From assembly GCA_002305395.1 (NCBI GenBank), contig DBQW01000039.1, positions 7,651-48,797 on the forward strand: 41,147 nucleotides of DNA. The letters are read 5' to 3'. The notes below the pieces were generated by a model. That model searched no databases. It had not been told where the DNA came from and saw only the letters and a list, made by a program, of their open reading frames with translations. This stretch comes from Candidatus Berkelbacteria bacterium UBA1384 (GTDB taxonomy: Bacteria > Patescibacteriota > UBA1384). A program made the translations under genes and the position numbers. Of the stretch, positions 1 to 41,147 are shown in pieces (within the stretch, counting starts at the first letter, position 1; each line of letters opens with the position of its first letter).

Positions 1-1326
1 TTCTACTTTGGCTTTGTCGGTATCGGCACCGCCTGTTGCTGTGGTGGTAGATTTTTCTTTGCTCTCTTTATCGTCTCTGGGAGTGTCTTTGCCTTCTGTT
101 GTTGTTCCTGCACCTTGGCCACTTGCACTTTCTGCTCTTTCTGCGCCTGGGCCACTTCCTGCTCCGGCAACATCGGCACTCTGTGTACTCCCCTCGCCAG
201 CCCCTTCGGTGGGTTTATCTTTTTCCTCTGTGCCCCCGGGCTTTTCTTCCTCTTCGGCTTTAATAACTTCTACACCATCGGGGCAATTACCAGCGGTCTC
301 GCTTATAAGTTCGCTGTATTTCTCGCTACCAAGCGAAATGATGTGTTTTGTAAATTGGGCGAGGGTGCCATAGTAATACTTTTCTTTGTCGTCTCCTTTT
401 TCTTTGTAGGTGTAACACTTTTTCTCTTGTTCCGTGGTTGTTTGTGTAGTGGGTGTGTTTTTTTCAAAGGTTAGTGTGGCAAGAGTAGTTTGTGTGTCGC
501 AACGGGGCTTTAGATAGTCTGTTTCTAGGTAACGGTTTTCACCTTTGTCGTCGCCGATTGCCTTTGCCCACACCTTGTACTTGTATTCTTTGCCTGGGAC
601 TAGCATTTGCCCATTTGGTCTTATTTTGTATTGCTTAAAGAGCACTCCTTCTTTAGATGTGCCGTTGGCTAAAATAGTGCGATAAAACCAGCCATCTATT
701 TTTTTACCCTCTTTGTCGTACATTTCTACTACAATTTCTTGTGCTTTGCTAGAAGTTTGTACAACTATGGGCAAACTTAGGTAGGTGCAGATTGCCTCTC
801 TTGCTCCGTCCCACGAGCCCCCCCCTCCACCGCCACCACTGCTAGAGACGGTATAGGTACCCGCAGAAGAGGCACCACCGCTGGTTGCAACGCGAGCACC
901 GCCACCGCCGGAAGAACGACCAGAACCACCACTCTTGGAAGCACTCTGCCTCTCGGCAGCCTCTATTTTTTCTTTAAGTTCAGACTTACCGCGAAGTAAA
1001 TTAGCGTGAAAGACAGTTAATTTCTCAGACAAAGAAGAACCGGCCGGTCCATACCTTTCTAGCACCTCCCGTGAGTCTTTAAGTGCATCTTCGACTGCCC
1101 CCAATCGCCCCTTGTCTGTCAAGACCTTAGAGGAAAGACTAGAATTAAGACTACTAAAAATACCACCAATACTTATGTATCCATTTTCGCCTGTTACGCC
1201 AACCAAATGAGCGCGTGGGATGGCACCAAAAGCTCCCCTCGCCCGATCCAGCCAATCGCTCGCTCTTGCGTTATTCATGGGCAACAAAAATACAAGCAAG
1301 AATAATAAAATTAAATATTTCTTCAT
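1..1326 (-). CDS. secreted hypothetical protein; the window truncates its C-terminal part (partial)
   Basis: ATG at 1326-1324 is preceded by GAGGAA. The N-terminus MKKYLILLFLLVFLLPMNNARA looks like a signal peptide. I checked the frame by hand over many lines and found no stops down to position 1. There is a G/S-rich linker and a K/E-rich tail. The + strand ORFs 8..373 and 115..474 are low-complexity antisense artefacts. Confidence 0.75.
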   Translation of the reverse strand, partial: MKKYLILLFLLVFLLPMNNARASDWLDRARGAFGAIPRAHLVGVTGENGYISIGGIFSSLNSSLSSKVLTDKGRLGAVEDALKDSREVLERYGPAGSSLSEKLTVFHANLLRGKSELKEKIEAAERQSASKSGGSGRSSGGGGARVATSGGASSAGTYTVSSSGGGGGGGSWDGAREAICTYLSLPIVVQTSSKAQEIVVEMYDKEGKKIDGWFYRTILANGTSKEGVLFKQYKIRPNGQMLVPGKEYKYKVWAKAIGDDKGENRYLETDYLKPRCDTQTTLATLTFEKNTPTTQTTTEQEKKCYTYKEKGDDKEKYYYGTLAQFTKHIISLGSEKYSELISETAGNCPDGVEVIKAEEEEKPGGTEEKDKPTEGAGEGSTQSADVAGAGSGPGAERAESASGQGAGTTTEGKDTPRDDKESKEKSTTTATGGADTDKAKVE

Positions 1327-10203: not shown

Positions 10204-11404
10204 TCCCGCTGGTCATTAGCGCGGCGGCAAGCCACCACAAAATTGCGAGATCGTTTTTGAAAATTGGGGTATCTACTAGCCCATAAAAAAGTATTGCTAA
10301 AAAGAAAACCAAGGGCATAAGAGCTTCTTTTGTAGGCGCGCGAAAATGGGGACGCAAAAGAATAATAACCCACCATACAAAAACTAGAAGTGCAAGCCCA
10401 CCCATACTCGCCCAAATATGCAAAAATAAATTATGGGCAGATAAGGCAAAGGGGGCAATAAATTCGTCGTAATTAACTCTTCCTTTTGTTAGGGTGGTAA
10501 AGTAGTCTTGGTAGTTACCCAACCCCGCGCCGAGCAATGGCTTTTCTTTGATAACCTCAAGCGTTGTGCGCCAGACCTCCCAACGCACGTTGTTACTTGT
10601 AACGACACGCCCCGCATTGGTTGAGGCGTTAAAATCGGGGCGCGCAAAGTAAAAAACAACTACCGCCATAGCTAGCGCGAAGACAGCAAATAAAAATGTT
10701 TTATGCTTAATTTTTCCCCCAAACGGTAGGTGGTAAAAAAGCATATAGGCGCCACCAAGCGCCAGGGACCCCACAAGTGCTACCACTGCCCCTCTACTTT
10801 GCGCGCCCGCAAGAGCGACTGCCATAACAAGTGCCGCCACCACACTAACCACGCGCCATATTTTTTGGTACTTAATAGCTCCTATGACCGCCAGGCTTAC
10901 AATGGGCGCTAAAAACAAGCTTAAATAATTTGCCGAAGCAGATACGTCGAAACCATACCAGCCGAGCCAGCGCCCGTCGTTTGCCCTGTGCCAACCACAA
11001 GCAGAAAACAAACTAACAAGCGCGACTACTCCCCCCGTAAGAATGAGTGTCTTTTTTACAAGAGAATATTGGCGACTTGCCACGACCATAATATAAATAA
11101 GTAAACCATCGACAAAAAAGGCGCGCCAGTAGCCGAGACCGGACAAGACATCGGGGTTTACAAGGGCGCTTATTAAACCCCATACGCTCCAGAGAGCAAT
11201 AATAAGAACGTGGCGCGGAGGAAAAACTGTCCAAGGGTGGGTAATAATTTTTCGAAGCCTGTCTTTGCCGTAGAATAAAAGCCAAGCAAGAAAGCCGAGG
11301 TAAAGAATTATTTCAAATGCGTTCGTAGGAACACCTAAAAGAGAAAAACGAAAGGGGTAAAGAGGTGTAGAAAAAATTATTGCCGATAAAATATATTTTT
11401 CCAT
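10181..11404 (-). CDS. O-antigen ligase/polymerase family (Wzy_C-like) membrane protein
   Basis: 407 aa and polytopic. It carries the ..GAQSRGAVVALVGSLAL.. motif typical of Wzy_C/WaaL-type proteins. Confidence 0.7.
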   Translation of the reverse strand: MEKYILSAIIFSTPLYPFRFSLLGVPTNAFEIILYLGFLAWLLFYGKDRLRKIITHPWTVFPPRHVLIIALWSVWGLISALVNPDVLSGLGYWRAFFVDGLLIYIMVVASRQYSLVKKTLILTGGVVALVSLFSACGWHRANDGRWLGWYGFDVSASANYLSLFLAPIVSLAVIGAIKYQKIWRVVSVVAALVMAVALAGAQSRGAVVALVGSLALGGAYMLFYHLPFGGKIKHKTFLFAVFALAMAVVVFYFARPDFNASTNAGRVVTSNNVRWEVWRTTLEVIKEKPLLGAGLGNYQDYFTTLTKGRVNYDEFIAPFALSAHNLFLHIWASMGGLALLVFVWWVIILLRPHFRAPTKEALMPLVFFLAILFYGLVDTPIFKNDLAILWWLAAALMTSGNAEKNYD

Positions 11405-18340: not shown

Positions 18341-19813
18341 TTATTTTATAAGCTCGGATAACGACCAATACACAAAGCCTTTTTTGCTTTTATCTGGCCA
18401 CCACTCTAGGTCTTCTGTGTCGCAAATTAAATAATTTTCTCCTCCGCTGATTTTACAATACGCACTGCGACTTGGTTGTTTAACCTTAGCGCCAGTTTTT
18501 CTATCGATGACATAAAAATCATTGCCACCAGGGTAATCAATCTCGTATCTACGGTGGATACTTAGCGGGCGATCAATCGTATTATAGAGATGCTTGGCAT
18601 CATTGTAACCTTGTTCATCTATCTCGATTATTTTTCCACTGATTAGGTCAATCTCTATGTATTGGTTGTAACCCTCTCTCTGGTTGATTGATACTGGCAC
18701 CTCGACCAGGATTGTATCTTTATCCTTACCGTTTTTAAACTGATCGCGCGAACGCAAGGCGTATGAATCGGTTGGCAAAACCGTGTGGCGGTTGCCGTTA
18801 CTATAGTATACCTGAGAAGGTCGCGGTATCACAACTCTTACCGTGCCCTTTCTCTTGTTATTAAAAACAGTATATTCTTCATGTCCGCCCACCATATTGG
18901 AGGATGCCGTAAAGCGAAATATAAAATAATCACCATAAATTTCTTCCGACACTCCTTTATACGCTTCGTAACTATAAGAGGCTGTACTAATAAAGGTTTT
19001 GGTTTTTTGCTTAAAGTCATAGTAGGCAATGTAATCATTTTCGTCAAAATACCAGATGCCGTCACCAGGAAAAACAATTCTATCCATTAAAGAAAGTGGG
19101 TGCGTAGAAGAGGTTGGGACAAAGGTCCACAGTTTACTATTTGTATAACTTTGATTTTGCCTCTCTAGTATCAGATTGTTTACTGGATTATAGGTTATCG
19201 CCGTTACAAGGGCAGGCAGCACCAGCAAAAGCAACATAACGCCTGCCAATTTTTTACCTGGTGCGGCGGGAATCTGCCTTGCTAAAGACCTTGCTTTTTT
19301 GAAGGCGAAAAATAATAGGATTAAAGAAACAATAACTGCTACCAGTGGTATAAGTATAGCCTCGGGGGGAATACCATAGTCGGCATGTAGCATAAACCAT
19401 ACCCAAAAAGATTCTATTATCGATATACAAATTAAGGAGCTAATTAATATAACAGATAACAACAGCTTGCGAAGGTAGCAAAATAATTCGTTCCTACTAA
19501 CTACAGTGTAGCGCGTTTGTATCAAATAATAAGCTATGGTCACGAGACAGGTAAATACAACGAGCACAATAGCCCCTATTACCGAGACTATCGAAACAAG
19601 TCTTGCAACATACAAGTACGTTAACAACGACACCAGCAAAACAGCCAACACATAACATATCCCTGCGTAAACTGTTCGTATGCGCACCTTATGGGTTGGA
19701 ACTGTTGATGACGATTGTGCTTGCGATGCTAGCGAACCTTCGCCTTGTGCTACATTATGCACAGGTGGTGAAGCTTTTTCCGACATTGCTAACCCCTCTT
19801 CTATTATGCCCAA
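18341..19813 (-). CDS. hypothetical membrane protein (N-terminal multi-TM region, C-terminal beta-rich domain)
   Basis: 490-aa ORF. It has several hydrophobic helices in the first 200 residues and an aromatic/charged C-terminal domain. Confidence 0.75.
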   Translation of the reverse strand: MGIIEEGLAMSEKASPPVHNVAQGEGSLASQAQSSSTVPTHKVRIRTVYAGICYVLAVLLVSLLTYLYVARLVSIVSVIGAIVLVVFTCLVTIAYYLIQTRYTVVSRNELFCYLRKLLLSVILISSLICISIIESFWVWFMLHADYGIPPEAILIPLVAVIVSLILLFFAFKKARSLARQIPAAPGKKLAGVMLLLLVLPALVTAITYNPVNNLILERQNQSYTNSKLWTFVPTSSTHPLSLMDRIVFPGDGIWYFDENDYIAYYDFKQKTKTFISTASYSYEAYKGVSEEIYGDYFIFRFTASSNMVGGHEEYTVFNNKRKGTVRVVIPRPSQVYYSNGNRHTVLPTDSYALRSRDQFKNGKDKDTILVEVPVSINQREGYNQYIEIDLISGKIIEIDEQGYNDAKHLYNTIDRPLSIHRRYEIDYPGGNDFYVIDRKTGAKVKQPSRSAYCKISGGENYLICDTEDLEWWPDKSKKGFVYWSLSELIK

Positions 19814-38152: not shown

Positions 38153-39894
38153 ACACTGTTATTAGCCTTAAAATCTTGTGGATAAAAGAGCAAGAAAGTG
38201 TGCCCTAAGCGCTCCGCGATATGAGTATTGTGAGAAATACATGGATAACGACCGAAATGACTATTTGCAATATTAACCGAAACAATAAGAACATCACCGT
38301 CTTCTAGTTTACTACAAACATCATCGCCCGCCATTTCTGATAGCTTGACGTGCGCCACACTCCTGTAAAGAGAGTCCGCCCCTACAATATAGCCTATAAT
38401 CAGCCTGCTGTCTGGATGTTCTTTTGCATATTCTGCCAATAAATATGCTTCCTGCCCCCAGTCAGTGTTAGAGTCACTCAGGTACTTATAACCGTTTTTC
38501 CAACCACCAGAAAGTTGAGAAAAATAACTTATTCTATTGGGACTATTGCAGGCAAGATCAACAATAAGCCAAATAGAAAAAAGCGCCAATAAACTATATA
38601 CCATTATCTTACGCGTTGCTATCATCTTCCAGGCTAAATATCCTATCGCTGGGGCCGTAAGTAGGTAAAATGGTAATATATGGCGTATGCCAATATGGAT
38701 ACGACCCAGGGAGGCACAAAATACATAAAGTACAGCAAAAAAGGACATTAATAAAATCACGCCTTGTTTTTTTCTTATTGCAAGGAATAGCCCGCCTGCT
38801 AGTAGGACCAATAATGCAGTGGGTGTTTTGTAGTAAATTGCATAAACAAAAAATTGACGAAAGCCGAAATCGCTAAATTCCCCATTAAGATATGACCTAT
38901 GCCCACCTATATTATGGTGGTAAACAACATTATAACCCTCTGCGTAACGCAAAAAGGGAACTACTAATGTCTTAATAACCGGATTGCTAATCTGTACCAT
39001 CCTGACTTGAAAGAGGCTTGCATCGACTGTCCTTTTTCCCAATAAAGCACGATGCTCAATTAAAACGTAAGACGACCAAACAAGAAATAAACAAACAAAC
39101 AGAGAAAGAAAAAATCTCAAAACAAAAGGTAATATTTTCTCTTTTTTTACAACAAAAAAAACAAACAATGAAACCATCGAGAGTGCAACAAAGAAAAAGC
39201 CACTAAATTTCGCCAAAAGTACTAGACCACAAGCCGATCCCCACCAAACATATCTTGTCAATTTCTGCGGTTCCTGTGCTAGATTATATGTCGCTATAAA
39301 CAAAAACCAAACCGCAACCACAAGATGTATATCGTTGGTTGTCAATGCACCATGGGCAATAATATTAGGATTAAGAGCAAGCGCGGCTAAACTACCCACC
39401 CCCGCCCATATATGCCACCTGCAAGTCATCCACCTAAAAACAGAATACAACATAGTCAGAGTCAAAATTACTGTAGGAAGGCGACCTAGAAAAACTATTA
39501 ACTTAGTCGGGCTTCCGCTTTCGTGAAAAAAAATCGTCCCCATTTTCCACTGATTGTTGTCGGGAGCCTCGTTGATGGCCGTGTCGATATTTGGCTTTAA
39601 GGGCAAAACAAAAACACCAGAGAGGATTTTGTTTAACGGTGGATGTTCATTGTTAATCACCATATCCCCTCGCAACAACATTCTTACCCCAGCGGGAATA
39701 TAGACTGTTTCATCACTGACAATAGAAAAGGTTAGCGCATTCCATAAAAGCCAATAAGCACTCCAGGCAAAAATTATTATTGCTAGCAGCCTTGGCAGAA
39801 AATGCTTACCCTTATTGCTTGCCTTGAGCGTAGCAAGCGATTTCTCCACACTTTTGTCCATAAATACTTTGAGTATATAAAAGTTTTTGAACAT
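38149..39894 (-). CDS. GT39/GT83 (PMT/ArnT-like) polytopic glycosyltransferase
   Basis: 581 aa, polytopic. The N-terminal loop ..SDETVYIPAGVRMLLRGDMVINNEHPPLNKIL.. resembles the DE..HPPL.K signature of PMT_2/ArnT enzymes. It overlaps the GT2 gene by 4 nt. Confidence 0.75.
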   Translation of the reverse strand: MFKNFYILKVFMDKSVEKSLATLKASNKGKHFLPRLLAIIIFAWSAYWLLWNALTFSIVSDETVYIPAGVRMLLRGDMVINNEHPPLNKILSGVFVLPLKPNIDTAINEAPDNNQWKMGTIFFHESGSPTKLIVFLGRLPTVILTLTMLYSVFRWMTCRWHIWAGVGSLAALALNPNIIAHGALTTNDIHLVVAVWFLFIATYNLAQEPQKLTRYVWWGSACGLVLLAKFSGFFFVALSMVSLFVFFVVKKEKILPFVLRFFLSLFVCLFLVWSSYVLIEHRALLGKRTVDASLFQVRMVQISNPVIKTLVVPFLRYAEGYNVVYHHNIGGHRSYLNGEFSDFGFRQFFVYAIYYKTPTALLVLLAGGLFLAIRKKQGVILLMSFFAVLYVFCASLGRIHIGIRHILPFYLLTAPAIGYLAWKMIATRKIMVYSLLALFSIWLIVDLACNSPNRISYFSQLSGGWKNGYKYLSDSNTDWGQEAYLLAEYAKEHPDSRLIIGYIVGADSLYRSVAHVKLSEMAGDDVCSKLEDGDVLIVSVNIANSHFGRYPCISHNTHIAERLGHTFLLFYPQDFKANNSV

Positions 39895-39942
39895 TTAACT
39901 TTGCGTCGACCACTACACACCAAAGCCATCTCGATTATTTTT

Positions 39943-39971
39943 AGTATATGCAACTATAAATACCTAGTCAA
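39943..39971 (-). promoter_or_regulatory. sigma70-type promoter TTGACT-N17-TATACT for the GT39-GT2 operon
   Basis: Read on the minus strand. The -10 ends 48 nt upstream of the ATG at 39894. Confidence 0.55.
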
Positions 39972-39996
39972 AACGCAATAATACTTATTCTGTCGC

Positions 39997-40039
39997 TTAA
40001 AAAGGAAAGGCCTTGCAGAAAAGTGAATTCTGCAAGGCC
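39997..40039 (-). terminator. rho-independent terminator of the GC-rich ORF
   Basis: A perfect 12-bp stem, GGCCTTGCAGAA-(7-nt loop)-TTCTGCAAGGCC, is followed on the minus strand by TTTCCTTTTTAA. Confidence 0.75.
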
Positions 40040-40092
40040 TGTGTGTAAGCCGTCCCCCCTGACGGCTCTATCTTCCAGCCACCTGGCCGGTC

Positions 40093-40473
40093 CTACTCTG
40101 GCGCGTACTCGGGCCAACCACCGTTGGCCTCAAAAATCGTGACCTTAGGCGGGAGAAGACTGAGGCTAAAAACGGCTTCGGGCCGTCTCCCTCGCGCTGG
40201 CCGCACAACGTAAAGTCTGTCGCCCAGACCGCGGGCGATCTCCAGCCCTGCCTGCTTCAGGGCATAGAGTGCCGTGGGGCTCGCCCTCTCCAGCCTGCGG
40301 TCACTAATGATGCCCCCGAAGAGGGTAAGAAGGGCTCCATTGACCGGTTCGCTCGGCATGGTCAAACAGAGCCCGGGGTAAACCTCTGATCCAGAGACCA
40401 TCAGTCTTCCCCCCTCGCGGGAGACATCTACCCCAGGTATTCCAGCAAGTCTTTTTTCGATCCCTTGCAACAT
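40093..40473 (-). CDS. hypothetical protein in a GC-rich cassette
   Basis: 126-aa ORF with ATG 10 nt after GGAGGTG. Two 60-nt lines I counted by hand gave 63-65% GC, against about 43% in the neighbouring GT39 gene. I recognise no domain. Confidence 0.6.
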   Translation of the reverse strand: MLQGIEKRLAGIPGVDVSREGGRLMVSGSEVYPGLCLTMPSEPVNGALLTLFGGIISDRRLERASPTALYALKQAGLEIARGLGDRLYVVRPARGRRPEAVFSLSLLPPKVTIFEANGGWPEYAPE

Positions 40474-40592
40474 CTTGTTGCTGCACCTCCGCTTTCAAAT
40501 CCGCCCTGACCTAAGCGAGACCTCCTCTCTGCTTTGTGTCAATGCACCGGGCGGATAGCGCTCCACACGCAAGCGTTGAGCACTATGGAGAA

Positions 40593-40641
40593 ATGGTACT
40601 ACTATCATTACCTACTGTCAAGAACGTGTTACGGTCCATAC
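40593..40641 (-). promoter_or_regulatory. promoter TTGACA-N17-TACCAT preceded by the IR box (copy 2)
   Basis: On the minus strand the order is TATGGACCGTAACA-N5-TTGACA-N17-TACCAT. The box-to-(-35) spacing matches the sRNA promoter at 41093-41147. Confidence 0.55.
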
Positions 40642-40681
40642 AAAAGAAGAGCAAACTCCTCGTTACATTCTTTACCGTTCG

Positions 40682-40951
40682 AGCGGGAGCGAGAACTCCC
40701 CGTTACCCCCTTTACCGTTCGAGCGGGAGCGAGAACTACCTCGTGAGGTTTGATGCTAACGTTTAATAGTTCTCGAGATGGCGCTACGCGCAATTCTCTC
40801 GAACGATAATCCTGTTACTGTTCGAGCGGGAGCGAGAACTATAGCGCGAGGTGTAGTGCTGGCGGTTGGGAGTTCTCGAGATGGCACTACGTGCGGTCTC
40901 TCGAACGATAAAAGGACAGCTGGGTCTCGGGCAGTAGCCCTCGAACAGTAA
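40682..40951 (-). repeat. mosaic hairpin-repeat cluster C8 (6 units), inverted orientation
   Basis: It has three F reverse-complement units (TTTACCGTTCGAGCGGGAGCGAGAAC). It also has two long-insert R units (GTTCTCGAGATGGC(G/A)CTACG(C/T)GC..TCTCTCGAACGATAA) and one GGGC/GCCC R unit. Confidence 0.95.
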
Positions 40952-41012
40952 GAATAAAAGGCACGGGACGGCAAAAGGCATACATCGGAATTAAATTAAC
41001 ATCTGCAGTTTT

Positions 41013-41086
41013 ATAAAAAAAATTCCCGCTGGTCCGGTGCATCGGACCAGCGGGGTCGCGGAGGAGGCCTGCAAGTCTCATCAGGC
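41013..41086 (-). ncRNA. candidate small RNA (about 74 nt) with an anti-Shine-Dalgarno stretch
   Basis: It is bounded by a consensus promoter and a perfect terminator (CCCGCTGGTCCG-6 nt-CGGACCAGCGGG followed by AATTTTTTTT). The predicted RNA has hairpin GCCUGC-12 nt-GCAGGC, single-stranded CUCCUCCGCGA, then the terminator. There is no SD before the only ATG. Confidence 0.5.
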
Positions 41087-41092
41087 AGGCAG

Positions 41093-41147
41093 ATTATATA
41101 ACAAGACCACTTAAATGTCAAATGCATGTTACGGTCCATAACATATT
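41093..41147 (-). promoter_or_regulatory. consensus promoter TTGACA-N17-TATAAT preceded by the IR box (copy 3)
   Basis: On the minus strand the order is AATATGTTATGGACCGTAACA-N5-TTGACA-N17-TATAAT. The box reaches the last base of the window. Confidence 0.6.

What the first reader, a model, noticed from the sequence alone, without database searches (positions are those of the whole stretch)
41013..41147. Candidate roughly 74-nt sRNA with a perfect sigma70 consensus promoter, an anti-SD motif and a perfect terminator
Read on the minus strand, the signals are:
- TTGACA (41121-41116), a 17-nt spacer, then TATAAT (41098-41093).
- About 7 nt later the transcript, GCCUGCCUGAUGAGACUUGCAGGCCUCCUCCGCGACCCCGCUGGUCCGAUGCACCGGACCAGCGGGAAUUUUUUUU.

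The predicted architecture is:
- A 5' hairpin, GCCUGC/GCAGGC.
- A single-stranded CCUCCUCCGC stretch.
- A 12-bp perfect terminator stem plus a U-run.

CCUCCGC is complementary to GCGGAGG at the ribosome-binding site of the adjacent GC-rich ORF (start 40473). CCUCC would also pair with other strong SDs in the window. The only ATG in the transcript has no SD, and the resulting ORF runs through the terminator, so a coding role is unlikely.

I infer a trans- or neighbour-acting translational repressor RNA, possibly an antitoxin-like partner of a GC-rich cassette.
Basis: partly seen in the sequence, partly recalled or inferred. Interest (0 to 1): 0.6.

Follow-up and report, generated by a model that had tools for sequence, protein, structure and literature searches.

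The report
Small RNA beside its hypervariable target
A roughly 70-base small RNA gene in a tiny Patescibacteria genome looks real, and it probably base-pairs with the leader and ribosome-binding site of the fast-evolving orphan gene next to it, which is a familiar kind of regulator in a barely studied group.

Summary

Rfam has no match. The unit recurs upstream of the same 126-aa orphan ORF in all 5 loci with DNA context, including one diverged same-genus genome, G001. Both RNA and ORF were found only in G000 and G001, of 151 and 162 class genomes.

The proposed CCUCCGC/GCGGAGG pairing with the Shine-Dalgarno site (SD) is the best accessible helix. It persists in G001 as CCCCCGC/GCGGGGG. A second site was missed: the terminator loop matches an internal loop of the leader over 9 nt, 11 nt in G001. 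The neighbouring leader ranks 1 of 146 SD-bearing 5' regions.

Weak points: two independent lineages, no covariation within the RNA, no decisive RNA data, and an ORF of unknown function.

The ORF is hypervariable between near-identical strains. Two more C-rich small RNAs exist. This is a new member of a known kind.

The parts
41127..41147 (-). Right end ('RE') of a dispersed mobile repeat, ending ...GGACCGTAACA. It is present in G000 only at this locus, and the contig ends inside it.
   Evidence: Searches show the same 21-22 nt at many contig ends. Searches show that L021 and L023 lack it here. Searches show the matching left end on contig C31, after gpmI.
41122..41126 (-). TGCAT, a 5-bp target-site duplication of that insertion, lying directly upstream of the -35 box.
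   Evidence: C31 ends ...GTTTTGCAT followed by the left end, and C42 reads right end, then TGCAT, then TTGACA; the uninserted L023 reads ...GTTTTGCATTTGACA.
41093..41121 (-). Sigma-70-type promoter of the small RNA: TTGACA, 17 nt, TATAAT.
   Evidence: scores it 12/12. One search finds it to be 1 of 3 such sites in the genome. G001 keeps it as TTGACA-17-TATAAC.
41015..41086 (-). Predicted small RNA of about 70 nt. The start at G41086 is inferred; the 3' end lies in the T-run.
   Evidence: The sequence is identical in L021, L022 and L023 and 76% identical in G001.
41067..41086 (-). 5'-terminal hairpin, GCCUG / 10-nt loop / CAGGC.
   Evidence: fold. G001 has a longer hairpin at the same place, also starting at the predicted +1.
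41055..41066 (-). Single-stranded C-rich linker, CUCCUCCGCGAC. CCUCCGC occupies 41064-41058.
   Evidence: cost to open 0.1 kcal/mol. It pairs with GCGGAGG (total -11.4) and with the GGAGG loop (-6.9).
41025..41054 (-). Terminator hairpin of 12 bp. The loop AUGCAC plus CGG of the stem (41042-41034) is complementary to the leader.
40652..40971 (.). Array of dispersed palindromic repeats (REPIN- or MITE-like) between the small RNA and the ORF promoter. Its length varies between strains and it is not part of the unit.
   Evidence: The gap between the small-RNA terminator and the ORF's -35 box is about 50 nt in G001 and about 0.4-1 kb (the array) in G000, L023 and L021.
40593..40621 (-). The ORF's own promoter, TTGACA-17-TACCAT. 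A variant copy of the RE repeat lies at 40639-40627.
   Evidence: scores it 10/12. G001 has TTGACA-17-TACTAT.
40474..40586 (-). Structured 5' leader of the ORF (start inferred). P1 hairpin 40586-40555 and P2 domain 40554-40501.
   Evidence: 42 predicted pairs, 2 of them with changes on both sides; almost invariant among the strains.
40542..40550 (-). CCGGUGCAU, partly in the internal loop of P2. Complementary to the small RNA's terminator loop and stem.
   Evidence: the 7-bp accessible helix totals -7.1. In G001 the match is 11 nt and the accessible 8-bp helix totals -11.9.
40521..40525 (-). GGAGG in the apical loop of a P2 hairpin (GGGGG in G001). A second site for the C-rich linker.
40482..40492 (-). 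Ribosome-binding region GCGGAGGUGCA. GCGGAGG pairs with the linker, and the overlapping GGUGCA can pair with the loop.
40093..40473 (-). GC-rich orphan ORF of 126 aa ('ORF126'), hypervariable between near-identical strains.
40008..40040 (-). Terminator of the ORF, identical in G000 and G001.

Best explanation
The region holds an independent small-RNA gene of about 70 nt.

Anatomy:
- a near-perfect constitutive promoter;
- a 5'-terminal hairpin;
- a 12-nt single-stranded C-rich linker;
- an intrinsic terminator.

Proposed mechanism (inferred, not shown):
1. The RNA acts on the mRNA of the next gene on the same strand, a 126-aa GC-rich orphan with its own weaker promoter and a structured leader of about 113 nt.
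2. Binding starts as a loop-loop contact. The terminator loop AUGCAC(C) meets the internal-loop GGUGCAU of the leader.
3. It is completed by the linker CCUCCGC pairing with the Shine-Dalgarno GCGGAGG, or first with a GGAGG hairpin loop.
4. This blocks ribosome binding, so the ORF is kept low while the small RNA is made.

What is shown: the sequence signals, the synteny, the co-occurrence and the complementarities. What is inferred: transcription, the pairing, and the direction of the effect.
For: Signals: the promoter is 12/12 and the terminator is perfect. This is 1 of 3 such promoters in the genome. The fold has z = -5.6.

Genomic context:
- The upstream gene gpmI has its own hairpin in L021, L023 and G001, so the unit is bounded on both sides.
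- The unit sits upstream of ORF126 in 5 of 5 loci with DNA context: G000, G001, L021, L022 and L023. L021 and L022 are the same over the part compared, so there are 4 distinct loci.
- The covariance model finds true matches in 2 of 151 class genomes, and ORF126 in 2 of 162. They are the same two genomes.

Pairing:
- In the accessibility-weighted scan the best helix is linker against SD in both cognate pairs: -11.4 in G000 and -12.7 in G001. The G001 RNA loses it on the G000 leader.
- Both partners differ between the lineages, yet a 7-nt match is kept: CCUCCGC/GCGGAGG against CCCCCGC/GCGGGGG. The GGAGG loop is GGGGG in G001 as well.
- The loop site is 9 nt in G000 and 11 nt in G001. The extension comes from a G-to-C change in the RNA and a U-to-G change in the leader, each of which breaks a pair within its own molecule.

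Specificity:
- Among 146 GGAGG-bearing 5' regions of G000, the neighbour is 1st for the loop site and 1st for the sum of both sites (-18.4 against -15.7 for the next). It is among the best 5 for the linker site.
- Genome-wide, only 3 places outside the gene's own antisense strand combine at least 9 nt against the loop region with at least 7 nt against the linker within 150 nt. One of them is this leader.
Against: - There are only two independent lineages. G000, L021, L022 and L023 are near-identical strains with flanks 96-99% identical, so their identical small RNA says little.
- Within the RNA, 0 of 17 pairs show a change on both sides. The stems are supported by conservation only.
- The linker segments that pair are offset by two alignment columns between the lineages. 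This is kept complementarity, not a clean one-for-one compensatory substitution.
- The 7-mer GCGGAGG is common, 112 copies. At least 57 other genomic sites match the linker region over 9 nt or more, most of them not at an RBS.
- The thresholds were chosen after the matches had been seen.
- Start sites are inferred.
- The one metatranscriptome contig over the RNA covers 40913-41096 at depth 2.9. It runs about 100 nt past the terminator and a few nt upstream of the predicted start, so it shows no discrete species and may be DNA.
- The SD lies 12 nt from the ATG, which is rather far.
- Two other C-rich small RNAs are not followed by a same-strand gene of this kind, so a general anti-SD role is possible.
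Confidence: 0.55

Rival explanations
1. The RNA is a general trans-acting anti-SD small RNA, like the C-rich RsaE/RoxS class. Its CCUCC-rich linker would dampen translation of many mRNAs with strong SD sequences, and the neighbouring ORF would be one target among many, or a coincidence.
For: - The genome has at least three small units with near-consensus promoters and unpaired C-rich or CCUCC motifs. These are this one, one on C32 with CCUCCUC in the terminator loop, and one on C12 with a C-rich terminator loop.
- All three are kept in G001.
- Of 146 SD-bearing regions, 5 reach the linker energy of the neighbour, among them a 9-nt and a 10-nt helix.
- GCGGAGG lies in 12 RBS-like contexts. One is an rplR-like gene on C18 that shares the 11-mer GCGGAGGTGCA.
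Against: - The loop site is unique to the neighbour among the 146 regions: -7.1 against a 5th percentile of -3.2.
- Small RNA and ORF co-occur in strict synteny and are both confined to one genus.
- The CCUCC core itself is not kept in G001. It becomes CCCCCC, which would mispair with ordinary GGAGG sites.
Confidence: 0.2
2. There is no regulatory RNA. A strong orphan promoter and a terminator happen to lie together, for example a terminator that insulates against read-through from gpmI, and any short transcript is a by-product.
For: - There is no direct evidence of transcription.
- There is no covariation in the stems.
- Intergenic DNA in this genome is full of hairpins and repeats.
Against: - gpmI already has its own hairpin upstream.
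- Promoter, hairpin, C-rich linker and terminator are all kept in G001. Identity is 76% over the unit, while gpmI is about 80% and the ORF 67%.
- The two-site complementarity to the neighbour would be unexplained.
Confidence: 0.12
3. The RNA binds the ORF126 protein, as a type III antitoxin does, or binds another protein, rather than acting by base pairing.
For: The order RNA gene, terminator, protein gene resembles type III loci as described in the passages read from PMC4147584. The protein has no known function.
Against: - The RNA has no tandem repeats.
- The ORF has its own conserved promoter and is separated from the RNA by 0.4-1 kb of unrelated repeats in some strains.
- The protein varies by about 30% between strains whose small RNA is identical. 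That fits poorly with a specific RNA-protein interface.
- This reading does not explain the complementarities.
Confidence: 0.08
4. The transcript encodes a small protein starting at ATG 41081.
For: A 64-aa frame is open from 41081 to 40887.
Against: - There is no SD, and only about 5 nt lie between the predicted start site and the ATG.
- The frame runs through the terminator.
- The ATG is absent in G001.
Confidence: 0.02

Closest known systems
Type I toxin-antitoxin antisense pairs with several contact sites or non-overlapping genes (par RNA I/RNA II of pAD1; tisB/IstR-1; zorO/orzO)
   Same: - A small RNA from a strong promoter lies next to its target gene.
- It is complementary to the long structured 5' leader and blocks ribosome access.
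- par uses more than one region of pairing.
- IstR-1 and the Orz RNAs are encoded beside the target mRNA's coding region rather than opposite it.

   Basis: passages read in PMC4147584. That pairing in par starts at the terminator loop is my recollection, not read here.
   Different: - The genes here are in tandem on the same strand and do not overlap, so no complementarity comes for free.
- The target encodes a 126-aa protein predicted as alpha/beta and soluble, not a hydrophobic peptide under 60 aa.
- Toxicity is unknown.
C-rich anti-SD small RNAs of Firmicutes (RsaE/RoxS)
   Same: - Short RNAs with unpaired C-rich motifs that pair with G-rich SD regions.
- No known need for Hfq.
- Several C-rich small RNAs in one genome.

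   Basis: search listing and the starts of the abstracts of PMC6158497, PMC5419742 and PMC8216469. The rest is recalled.
   Different: - No Rfam match to RsaE or to any other family.
- The motif here is CCUCC or CCCCC in a linker, not the conserved RsaE loops.
- The best target is the adjacent gene and uses a second site outside the C-rich motif.
- The family is confined to one genus.
Kissing-loop antisense control (CopA/CopT, RNA I/RNA II of ColE1)
   Same: A fully complementary hairpin loop on the regulator meets a loop on the target as the likely first contact. This comparison is recalled and was not read here.
   Different: Those pairs are transcribed from opposite strands of the same DNA and are fully complementary. 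Here the regulator is encoded separately and matches over only 7-11 nt per site.
Type III toxin-antitoxin loci (ToxIN)
   Same: The order is RNA gene, terminator, then protein gene (passages of PMC4147584).
   Different: - No tandem repeats in the RNA.
- A separate promoter for the ORF.
- No match of the ORF to defence-system profiles.

Membership tests
Any Rfam family (including RsaE, hammerhead, 6S, SRP, tmRNA) | Match to the family covariance model | tested here: not met
   At gathering thresholds the window gives only 3 tRNAs. At E up to 10 on 39900-41147 there are only 4 chance-level hits, none over the RNA as a whole. The CUGAUGAG in the 5' loop is not kept in G001.
Bacterial small RNA gene (independent transcription unit) | Own promoter and intrinsic terminator, outside coding sequence | tested here: met
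   One search gives a 12/12 promoter and a 12-bp stem with eight T. No plausible ORF is present. The upstream gene has its own hairpin.
Bacterial small RNA gene (independent transcription unit) | A discrete transcript is detected | tested here: inconclusive
   Only assembled contigs of public runs were available. One metatranscriptome contig spans 40913-41096 at depth 2.9, and it may be DNA or read-through.
Bacterial small RNA gene (independent transcription unit) | Conservation with structure-preserving change | tested here: inconclusive
   In G001 16 of 17 pairs are kept, but 0 pairs show a change on both sides, and there are only 2 distinct sequences.
Type I toxin-antitoxin system | Antisense RNA complementary to the toxin mRNA at or near the translation start | tested here: met
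   pairing of the linker with the SD and of the loop with the leader, ranked 1 of 146. This is computational only.
Type I toxin-antitoxin system | Small hydrophobic toxin, usually under 60 aa | tested here: not met
   The ORF is 126 aa. The AlphaFold model is alpha/beta with mean pLDDT 77, and no family matches.
Type I toxin-antitoxin system | Toxicity of the protein, relieved by the RNA | not testable with these tools
   This needs an expression assay.
Type III toxin-antitoxin system | RNA made of tandem repeats, co-transcribed with the toxin through a leaky terminator | tested here: not met
   The RNA has no tandem repeat. The ORF has its own conserved promoter, and up to about 1 kb of unrelated repeats lies between the two.
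RsaE/RoxS-type C-rich small RNA | Unpaired C-rich motif complementary to SD sequences | tested here: met
   The linker is unpaired, with a cost of 0.1 kcal/mol to open, and pairs with GGAGG and GCGGAGG.
RsaE/RoxS-type C-rich small RNA | Sequence or structure homology to the family | tested here: not met
   No Rfam match.
TIGR (Tas-associated) guide-RNA arrays, considered for the repeat array at 40652-40971 | Two alternating 8-12-nt repeats with 9-nt spacers, next to a Nop-domain gene | tested here: not met
   The definition was read in passages of PMC12045711. The units here are about 60-130 nt, have inverted arms of about 27 nt, and are scattered over 35 contigs.

The most novel reading that the evidence does not exclude
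The small RNA and ORF126 form a new kind of RNA-controlled two-gene module in Patescibacteria. A constitutive antisense RNA would hold down a fast-diversifying, possibly toxic or defence-related, soluble protein through a two-site kissing and anti-SD interaction. This would be a type I-like toxin-antitoxin or abortive-infection logic with a large, non-membrane effector. The module would be one of a genus-specific set of C-rich anti-SD small RNAs, the first riboregulators described for this radiation.
Probability: 0.15. Interest if true: 0.7.

Novelty: new member of a known kind. Interest (0 to 1): 0.5.

Why it matters
My two literature searches found almost nothing on riboregulation in Patescibacteria (see Tried and rejected). 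These organisms have tiny genomes, few regulators and no cultured model for this lineage.

This locus is a concrete, testable pair of small RNA and target, with defined contact nucleotides. It could be checked in a heterologous reporter without growing the organism.

The target is itself odd. It is an orphan gene that differs by about 25% in DNA between strains whose flanks are about 99% identical. The module may therefore mark a locus under an arms race.

If the pairing fails the test, the finding is still a clean example of a conserved small RNA gene, but of little wider weight.

Tried and rejected
Known RNA families. Rfam gave nothing at the curated thresholds, nothing at E up to 10 over the locus, and nothing at E up to 0.01 over the two other small-RNA loci. 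The hammerhead idea, from CUGAUGAG in the 5' loop, was dropped because there is no model match and the motif is lost in G001.

More lineages.
- The covariance model R1 found only G000 and G001 among 151 class genomes. Two weak extra hits (E 0.0077 and 0.058) were inspected and resemble only the terminator.
- The scans by protein gave 1 locus in genome contigs, 3 in metagenome contigs and none in viral contigs or the phage records.

RNA evidence.
- All 8 runs listed by the run search hold less than a fifth of the sampled words. The 4 that were laid are assembled contigs.
- They show that the small RNA and leader DNA or RNA of a strain like L023 is present in wastewater and activated-sludge libraries. 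They show no ends, no strand and no level.
- The lack of cover over the ORF body is not a finding, because the alleles differ.

Function of the protein.
- Pfam's best hit is Imm45 at E 0.22, below its cut-off.
- The single NCBIfam row (E 0.093) is chance-level, and PHROGs and PADLOC give nothing.
- Foldseek against PDB gives no hit better than E 0.3.
- The Atlas's best score is 0.79, under its own lead threshold.
-.

Empty-site test. I tried to define an empty site for the cassette in other genera of the family. The downstream glycosyltransferase has a different upstream neighbour in G002 and G003, and G001 lacks it, so nothing could be concluded.

Anti-SD within the leader. RNAalifold paired UCUCC just after the -10 box with the SD. 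I set this aside because that stretch is probably upstream of the transcription start.

TIGR arrays as a reading of the neighbouring repeats: rejected on unit size.

Not in print. My searches were 'Patescibacteria / small RNA / noncoding RNA' and 'Candidate Phyla Radiation / sRNA / terminator'. The second returned only the TIGR-Tas paper; the first listed it, plus three gut or rumen microbiome papers unrelated to riboregulation, among those holding 'Patescibacteria'. These two searches do not prove that no paper exists. Supplementary files were not opened.

Full report
WHERE THE WINDOW LIES

The window is positions 7651-48797 of contig C42 of a 647-kb assembly in 43 contigs. The assembly is 94% complete with about 44% G+C. 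The record title of its same-genus relative names a 'Patescibacteria group bacterium'. The finding sits at the very end of the contig.

THE OBSERVATION

On the minus strand, one search finds:
- TTGACA (41121-41116), a 17-nt spacer and TATAAT (41098-41093), a 12/12 match;
- a terminator at 41054-41025 with 12 pairs, 10 of them G-C, and a 6-nt loop, followed by AA and eight T.

A 12/12 promoter occurs only 3 times in the genome, and an 11/12 promoter 37 times. The 78-nt stretch folds at -38.1 kcal/mol with z = -5.6, and 0 of 200 shuffles fold as well.

One correction is needed. A start 7 nt downstream is G41086. That gives an RNA of about 70 nt whose 5' hairpin is GCCUG/CAGGC, because GCCUG is repeated in tandem.

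No Rfam family matches. The only ATG opens a frame that runs through the terminator, and it is missing in the relative.

CONSERVATION AND CONTEXT

A DNA search of 41 related genomes found the unit in one other genome, G001, of the same genus. Identity is 76% from the -35 box to the terminator. In G001 the unit is followed after about 50 nt by a homologue of the next promoter, leader and ORF.

The ORF encodes 126-127 aa and is 49% identical between the two genomes, so it is a real gene. Its family is very small:
- 6 proteins among 5.8 billion;
- 2 representative clusters among 1.84 billion;
- 2 of 162 genomes of the class.

A covariance model of the small RNA found true matches in the same two genomes out of 151. 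Its two weak extra hits are ordinary terminators.

Three metagenome contigs carry the ORF, two of them identical over the part compared. All have the small RNA upstream, directly after gpmI and that gene's own hairpin. RNA and ORF therefore travel together in 5 of 5 loci with context.

These contigs are near-identical strains of G000, with flanks 96-99% identical. Their identical small RNA adds little. In effect there are two lineages.

Between the small RNA and the ORF promoter lies a variable array of dispersed palindromic repeats. The gap is about 50 nt with no array in G001, and the array fills about 0.4-1 kb in G000, L023 and L021. The two genes are therefore neighbours, not one fixed transcript.

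THE TARGET LEADER

The ORF has its own promoter, TTGACA-17-TACCAT (TACTAT in G001), and a leader of about 113 nt. The leader folds into:
- a 5'-terminal hairpin;
- a second domain, P2, closed by CCGCCC/GGGCGG;
- inside P2, an internal loop and a small hairpin that shows GGAGG in its loop.

Of 42 predicted pairs, 2 have changes on both sides. By eye:
- the small hairpin changes GAGA/UCUC to GAAA/UUUC;
- a 5-bp hairpin over the start codon changes GCAAC/GUUGC to GCAGC/GCUGC.

COMPLEMENTARITY

| Pair | Linker with SD | Total (kcal/mol) | Linker with the hairpin loop |
|---|---|---|---|
| G000 RNA, G000 leader | CCUCCGC with GCGGAGG | -11.4 | -6.9 |
| G001 RNA, G001 leader | CCCCCGC with GCGGGGG | -12.7 | -9.1 |

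The G001 RNA loses the SD helix on the G000 leader. The G000 RNA keeps it on the G001 leader through a G-U pair.

A second site was not noticed before:
- The terminator loop AUGCAC plus CGG of its stem is complementary to CCGGUGCAU in the leader. GGUGCAU of that stretch is predicted to be unpaired.
- The match is 9 nt in G000 and 11 nt in G001.
- The extension comes from a G-to-C change at the loop-closing pair of the RNA and a U-to-G change in the leader. Each breaks a pair within its own molecule and creates one between the molecules.
- The order of the sites is right for antiparallel pairing.

HOW SPECIAL IS THIS?

- GCGGAGG alone is common: 112 copies, 12 of them in an RBS-like context.
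- At least 57 other sites match the linker region over 9 nt or more.
- Only 3 places in the genome outside the gene's own antisense strand combine a match of at least 9 nt to the loop region with a match of at least 7 nt to the linker within 150 nt. One of them is this leader.
- Among 146 crudely defined GGAGG-bearing 5' regions, the neighbour ranks 1st for the loop site (-7.1 against a 5th percentile of -3.2). It ranks 1st for the sum of both sites (-18.4 against -15.7 for the next) and is among the best 5 for the linker site.
- These thresholds were set after I had seen the matches, so the figures are indicative only.

WHAT SPEAKS AGAINST

- No pair inside the RNA shows a compensatory change.
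- There are only two lineages.
- The linker segments are offset in the alignment.
- Start sites are inferred.
- The RNA data are assembled contigs. One metatranscriptome contig covers 40913-41096 at depth 2.9. It runs past the terminator and could be DNA.

THE ORF

ORF126 is 60% G+C against 35-45% in its flanks. It has no significant family, defence-system or phage match and no structural neighbour.

Among G000, L021 and L023:
- The leader and the downstream gene differ at about 1 base in 100.
- The ORF differs at about 25% of bases, with sharp edges about 8 nt before the ATG and at the stop codon.
- dS is about 0.5, dN/dS about 0.43, and transitions outnumber transversions about 3 to 1.
- The L023 allele looks like a mosaic of the others.

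This fits old alleles exchanged by recombination between conserved flanks. It is not what a diversity-generating retroelement produces, because the changes are spread along the whole gene, and no reverse transcriptase was seen in the ORFs I listed for 38500-41147.

MECHANISM AND FILING

The most likely reading, at about 55%, is a neighbour-acting antisense repressor of translation. It would have a loop-loop first contact and an anti-SD second contact.

It works like type I antitoxin RNAs with separate contact sites, and like the C-rich anti-SD small RNAs of Firmicutes. It is not a member of either group:
- the target is not a small hydrophobic peptide;
- no RNA family model matches.

Rivals:
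- a general anti-SD small RNA (about 20%), favoured by the two further C-rich small RNAs in the genome;
- no function (about 12%);
- a protein-binding RNA (about 8%);
- a coding transcript (about 2%).

VERDICT

This is a real and conserved small-RNA gene. It is a new member of a known kind, in a lineage where such regulators are undescribed as far as my two searches reach. Interest is moderate.

Noticed in passing
window 41122-41147; G000 contigs C31 and C42 ends; about 28 exact copies genome-wide: A mobile element is inserted between gpmI and the small-RNA promoter in G000 only, with a 5-bp duplication (TGCAT). Its left end is on C31 and its right end ('RE', ...GGACCGTAACA) on C42, and L021 and L023 show the empty site. 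Of 38 copies allowing one mismatch, 22 lie exactly 5 nt upstream of a TTG -35 box and 22 precede a promoter scoring at least 8/12 at that fixed offset. The background rates are 2.2% and 1.2%. Two of the downstream genes are tRNAs and one looks like rpmH by eye. Many contigs end in this repeat. G001 has 1 exact copy. An element that lands directly upstream of -35 boxes would be unusual.
   Followed up: partly
window 40652-40971 and 15 other stretches of contig C42 (10 of them inside the window); G000 genome-wide: There is a very abundant family of palindromic repeats (REPIN- or MITE-like). The inverted arms are TTAYYGTTCGAG...CGAGAACT and AGTTCTCG...CTCGAACRRTAA, around a diverged centre of about 30 nt, often in arrays. 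The arm-end motif occurs 447 times in 647 kb, and about 4% of bases lie within 20 nt of a motif. Counts in relatives are 296 in G001, 57 in G003, 20 in G005, 10 in G004 and 3 in G002. This is striking for so small a genome.
   Followed up: partly
window 40093-40473: ORF126 is hypervariable. It is about 25% diverged in DNA between strains whose flanks are about 99% identical, with sharp boundaries at the ORF ends. dS is about 0.5, dN/dS about 0.43 and the transition/transversion ratio about 3. One allele looks mosaic. G+C is 60% against a genome figure of 44%.
   Followed up: partly
G000:C32, about 18915-19035 (+) (L030, about 516-636): A second candidate small RNA of about 83 nt. Its promoter is TTGACT-16-TATAAT behind a variant of the RE repeat. 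The 5' hairpin has a GGGGGUG loop, and the terminator loop carries CCUCCUC. It is 80% identical in G001, with a compensatory G-C to A-U change in the 5' hairpin. No Rfam match.
   Followed up: partly
G000:C12, about 289-410 (+) (L031): A third candidate small RNA of about 87 nt. Its promoter is TTGACA-17-AATAAT behind the RE repeat. It has a GCUGC/GCAGC 5' hairpin and a long terminator hairpin with a C-rich loop that holds UCCUCCC. It is 75% identical in G001. The linker and the CUGGUCC stretch resemble the small RNA of the finding, so the two may be paralogues. No Rfam match.
   Followed up: partly
G000:C12:613-1410 (-) (L031): Another GC-rich orphan ORF, 265 aa with no Pfam match, convergent with the third small RNA.
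   Followed up: no
window 40008-40040 and L017, about 1870-1915: The 33-nt terminator hairpin after ORF126, with its T-rich tail, is letter-for-letter identical in G000 and G001, although the ORF is 67% and gpmI about 80% identical in DNA. This is unexplained.
   Followed up: no
G000:C18, minus strand near 10719: The ribosome-binding site of an rplR-like gene (my reading of its first residues) shares the 11-mer GCGGAGGTGCA with the ORF126 site, so it could be a second target of the small RNA. It ranks 8th of 146 in the two-site score.
   Followed up: no
G000, for example C42:38088-38260 (+), C8, C34, C40, C41: A conserved 'head' of about 150 nt with a perfect 16-bp hairpin (GCATTTACTTCGATAC...) lies between repeat arrays and the RE repeat. 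The hairpin motif occurs 32 times. The short core CCAATATGTTA/TAACATATTGG joins different partners in different copies, as if it were a recombination or inversion site.
   Followed up: no
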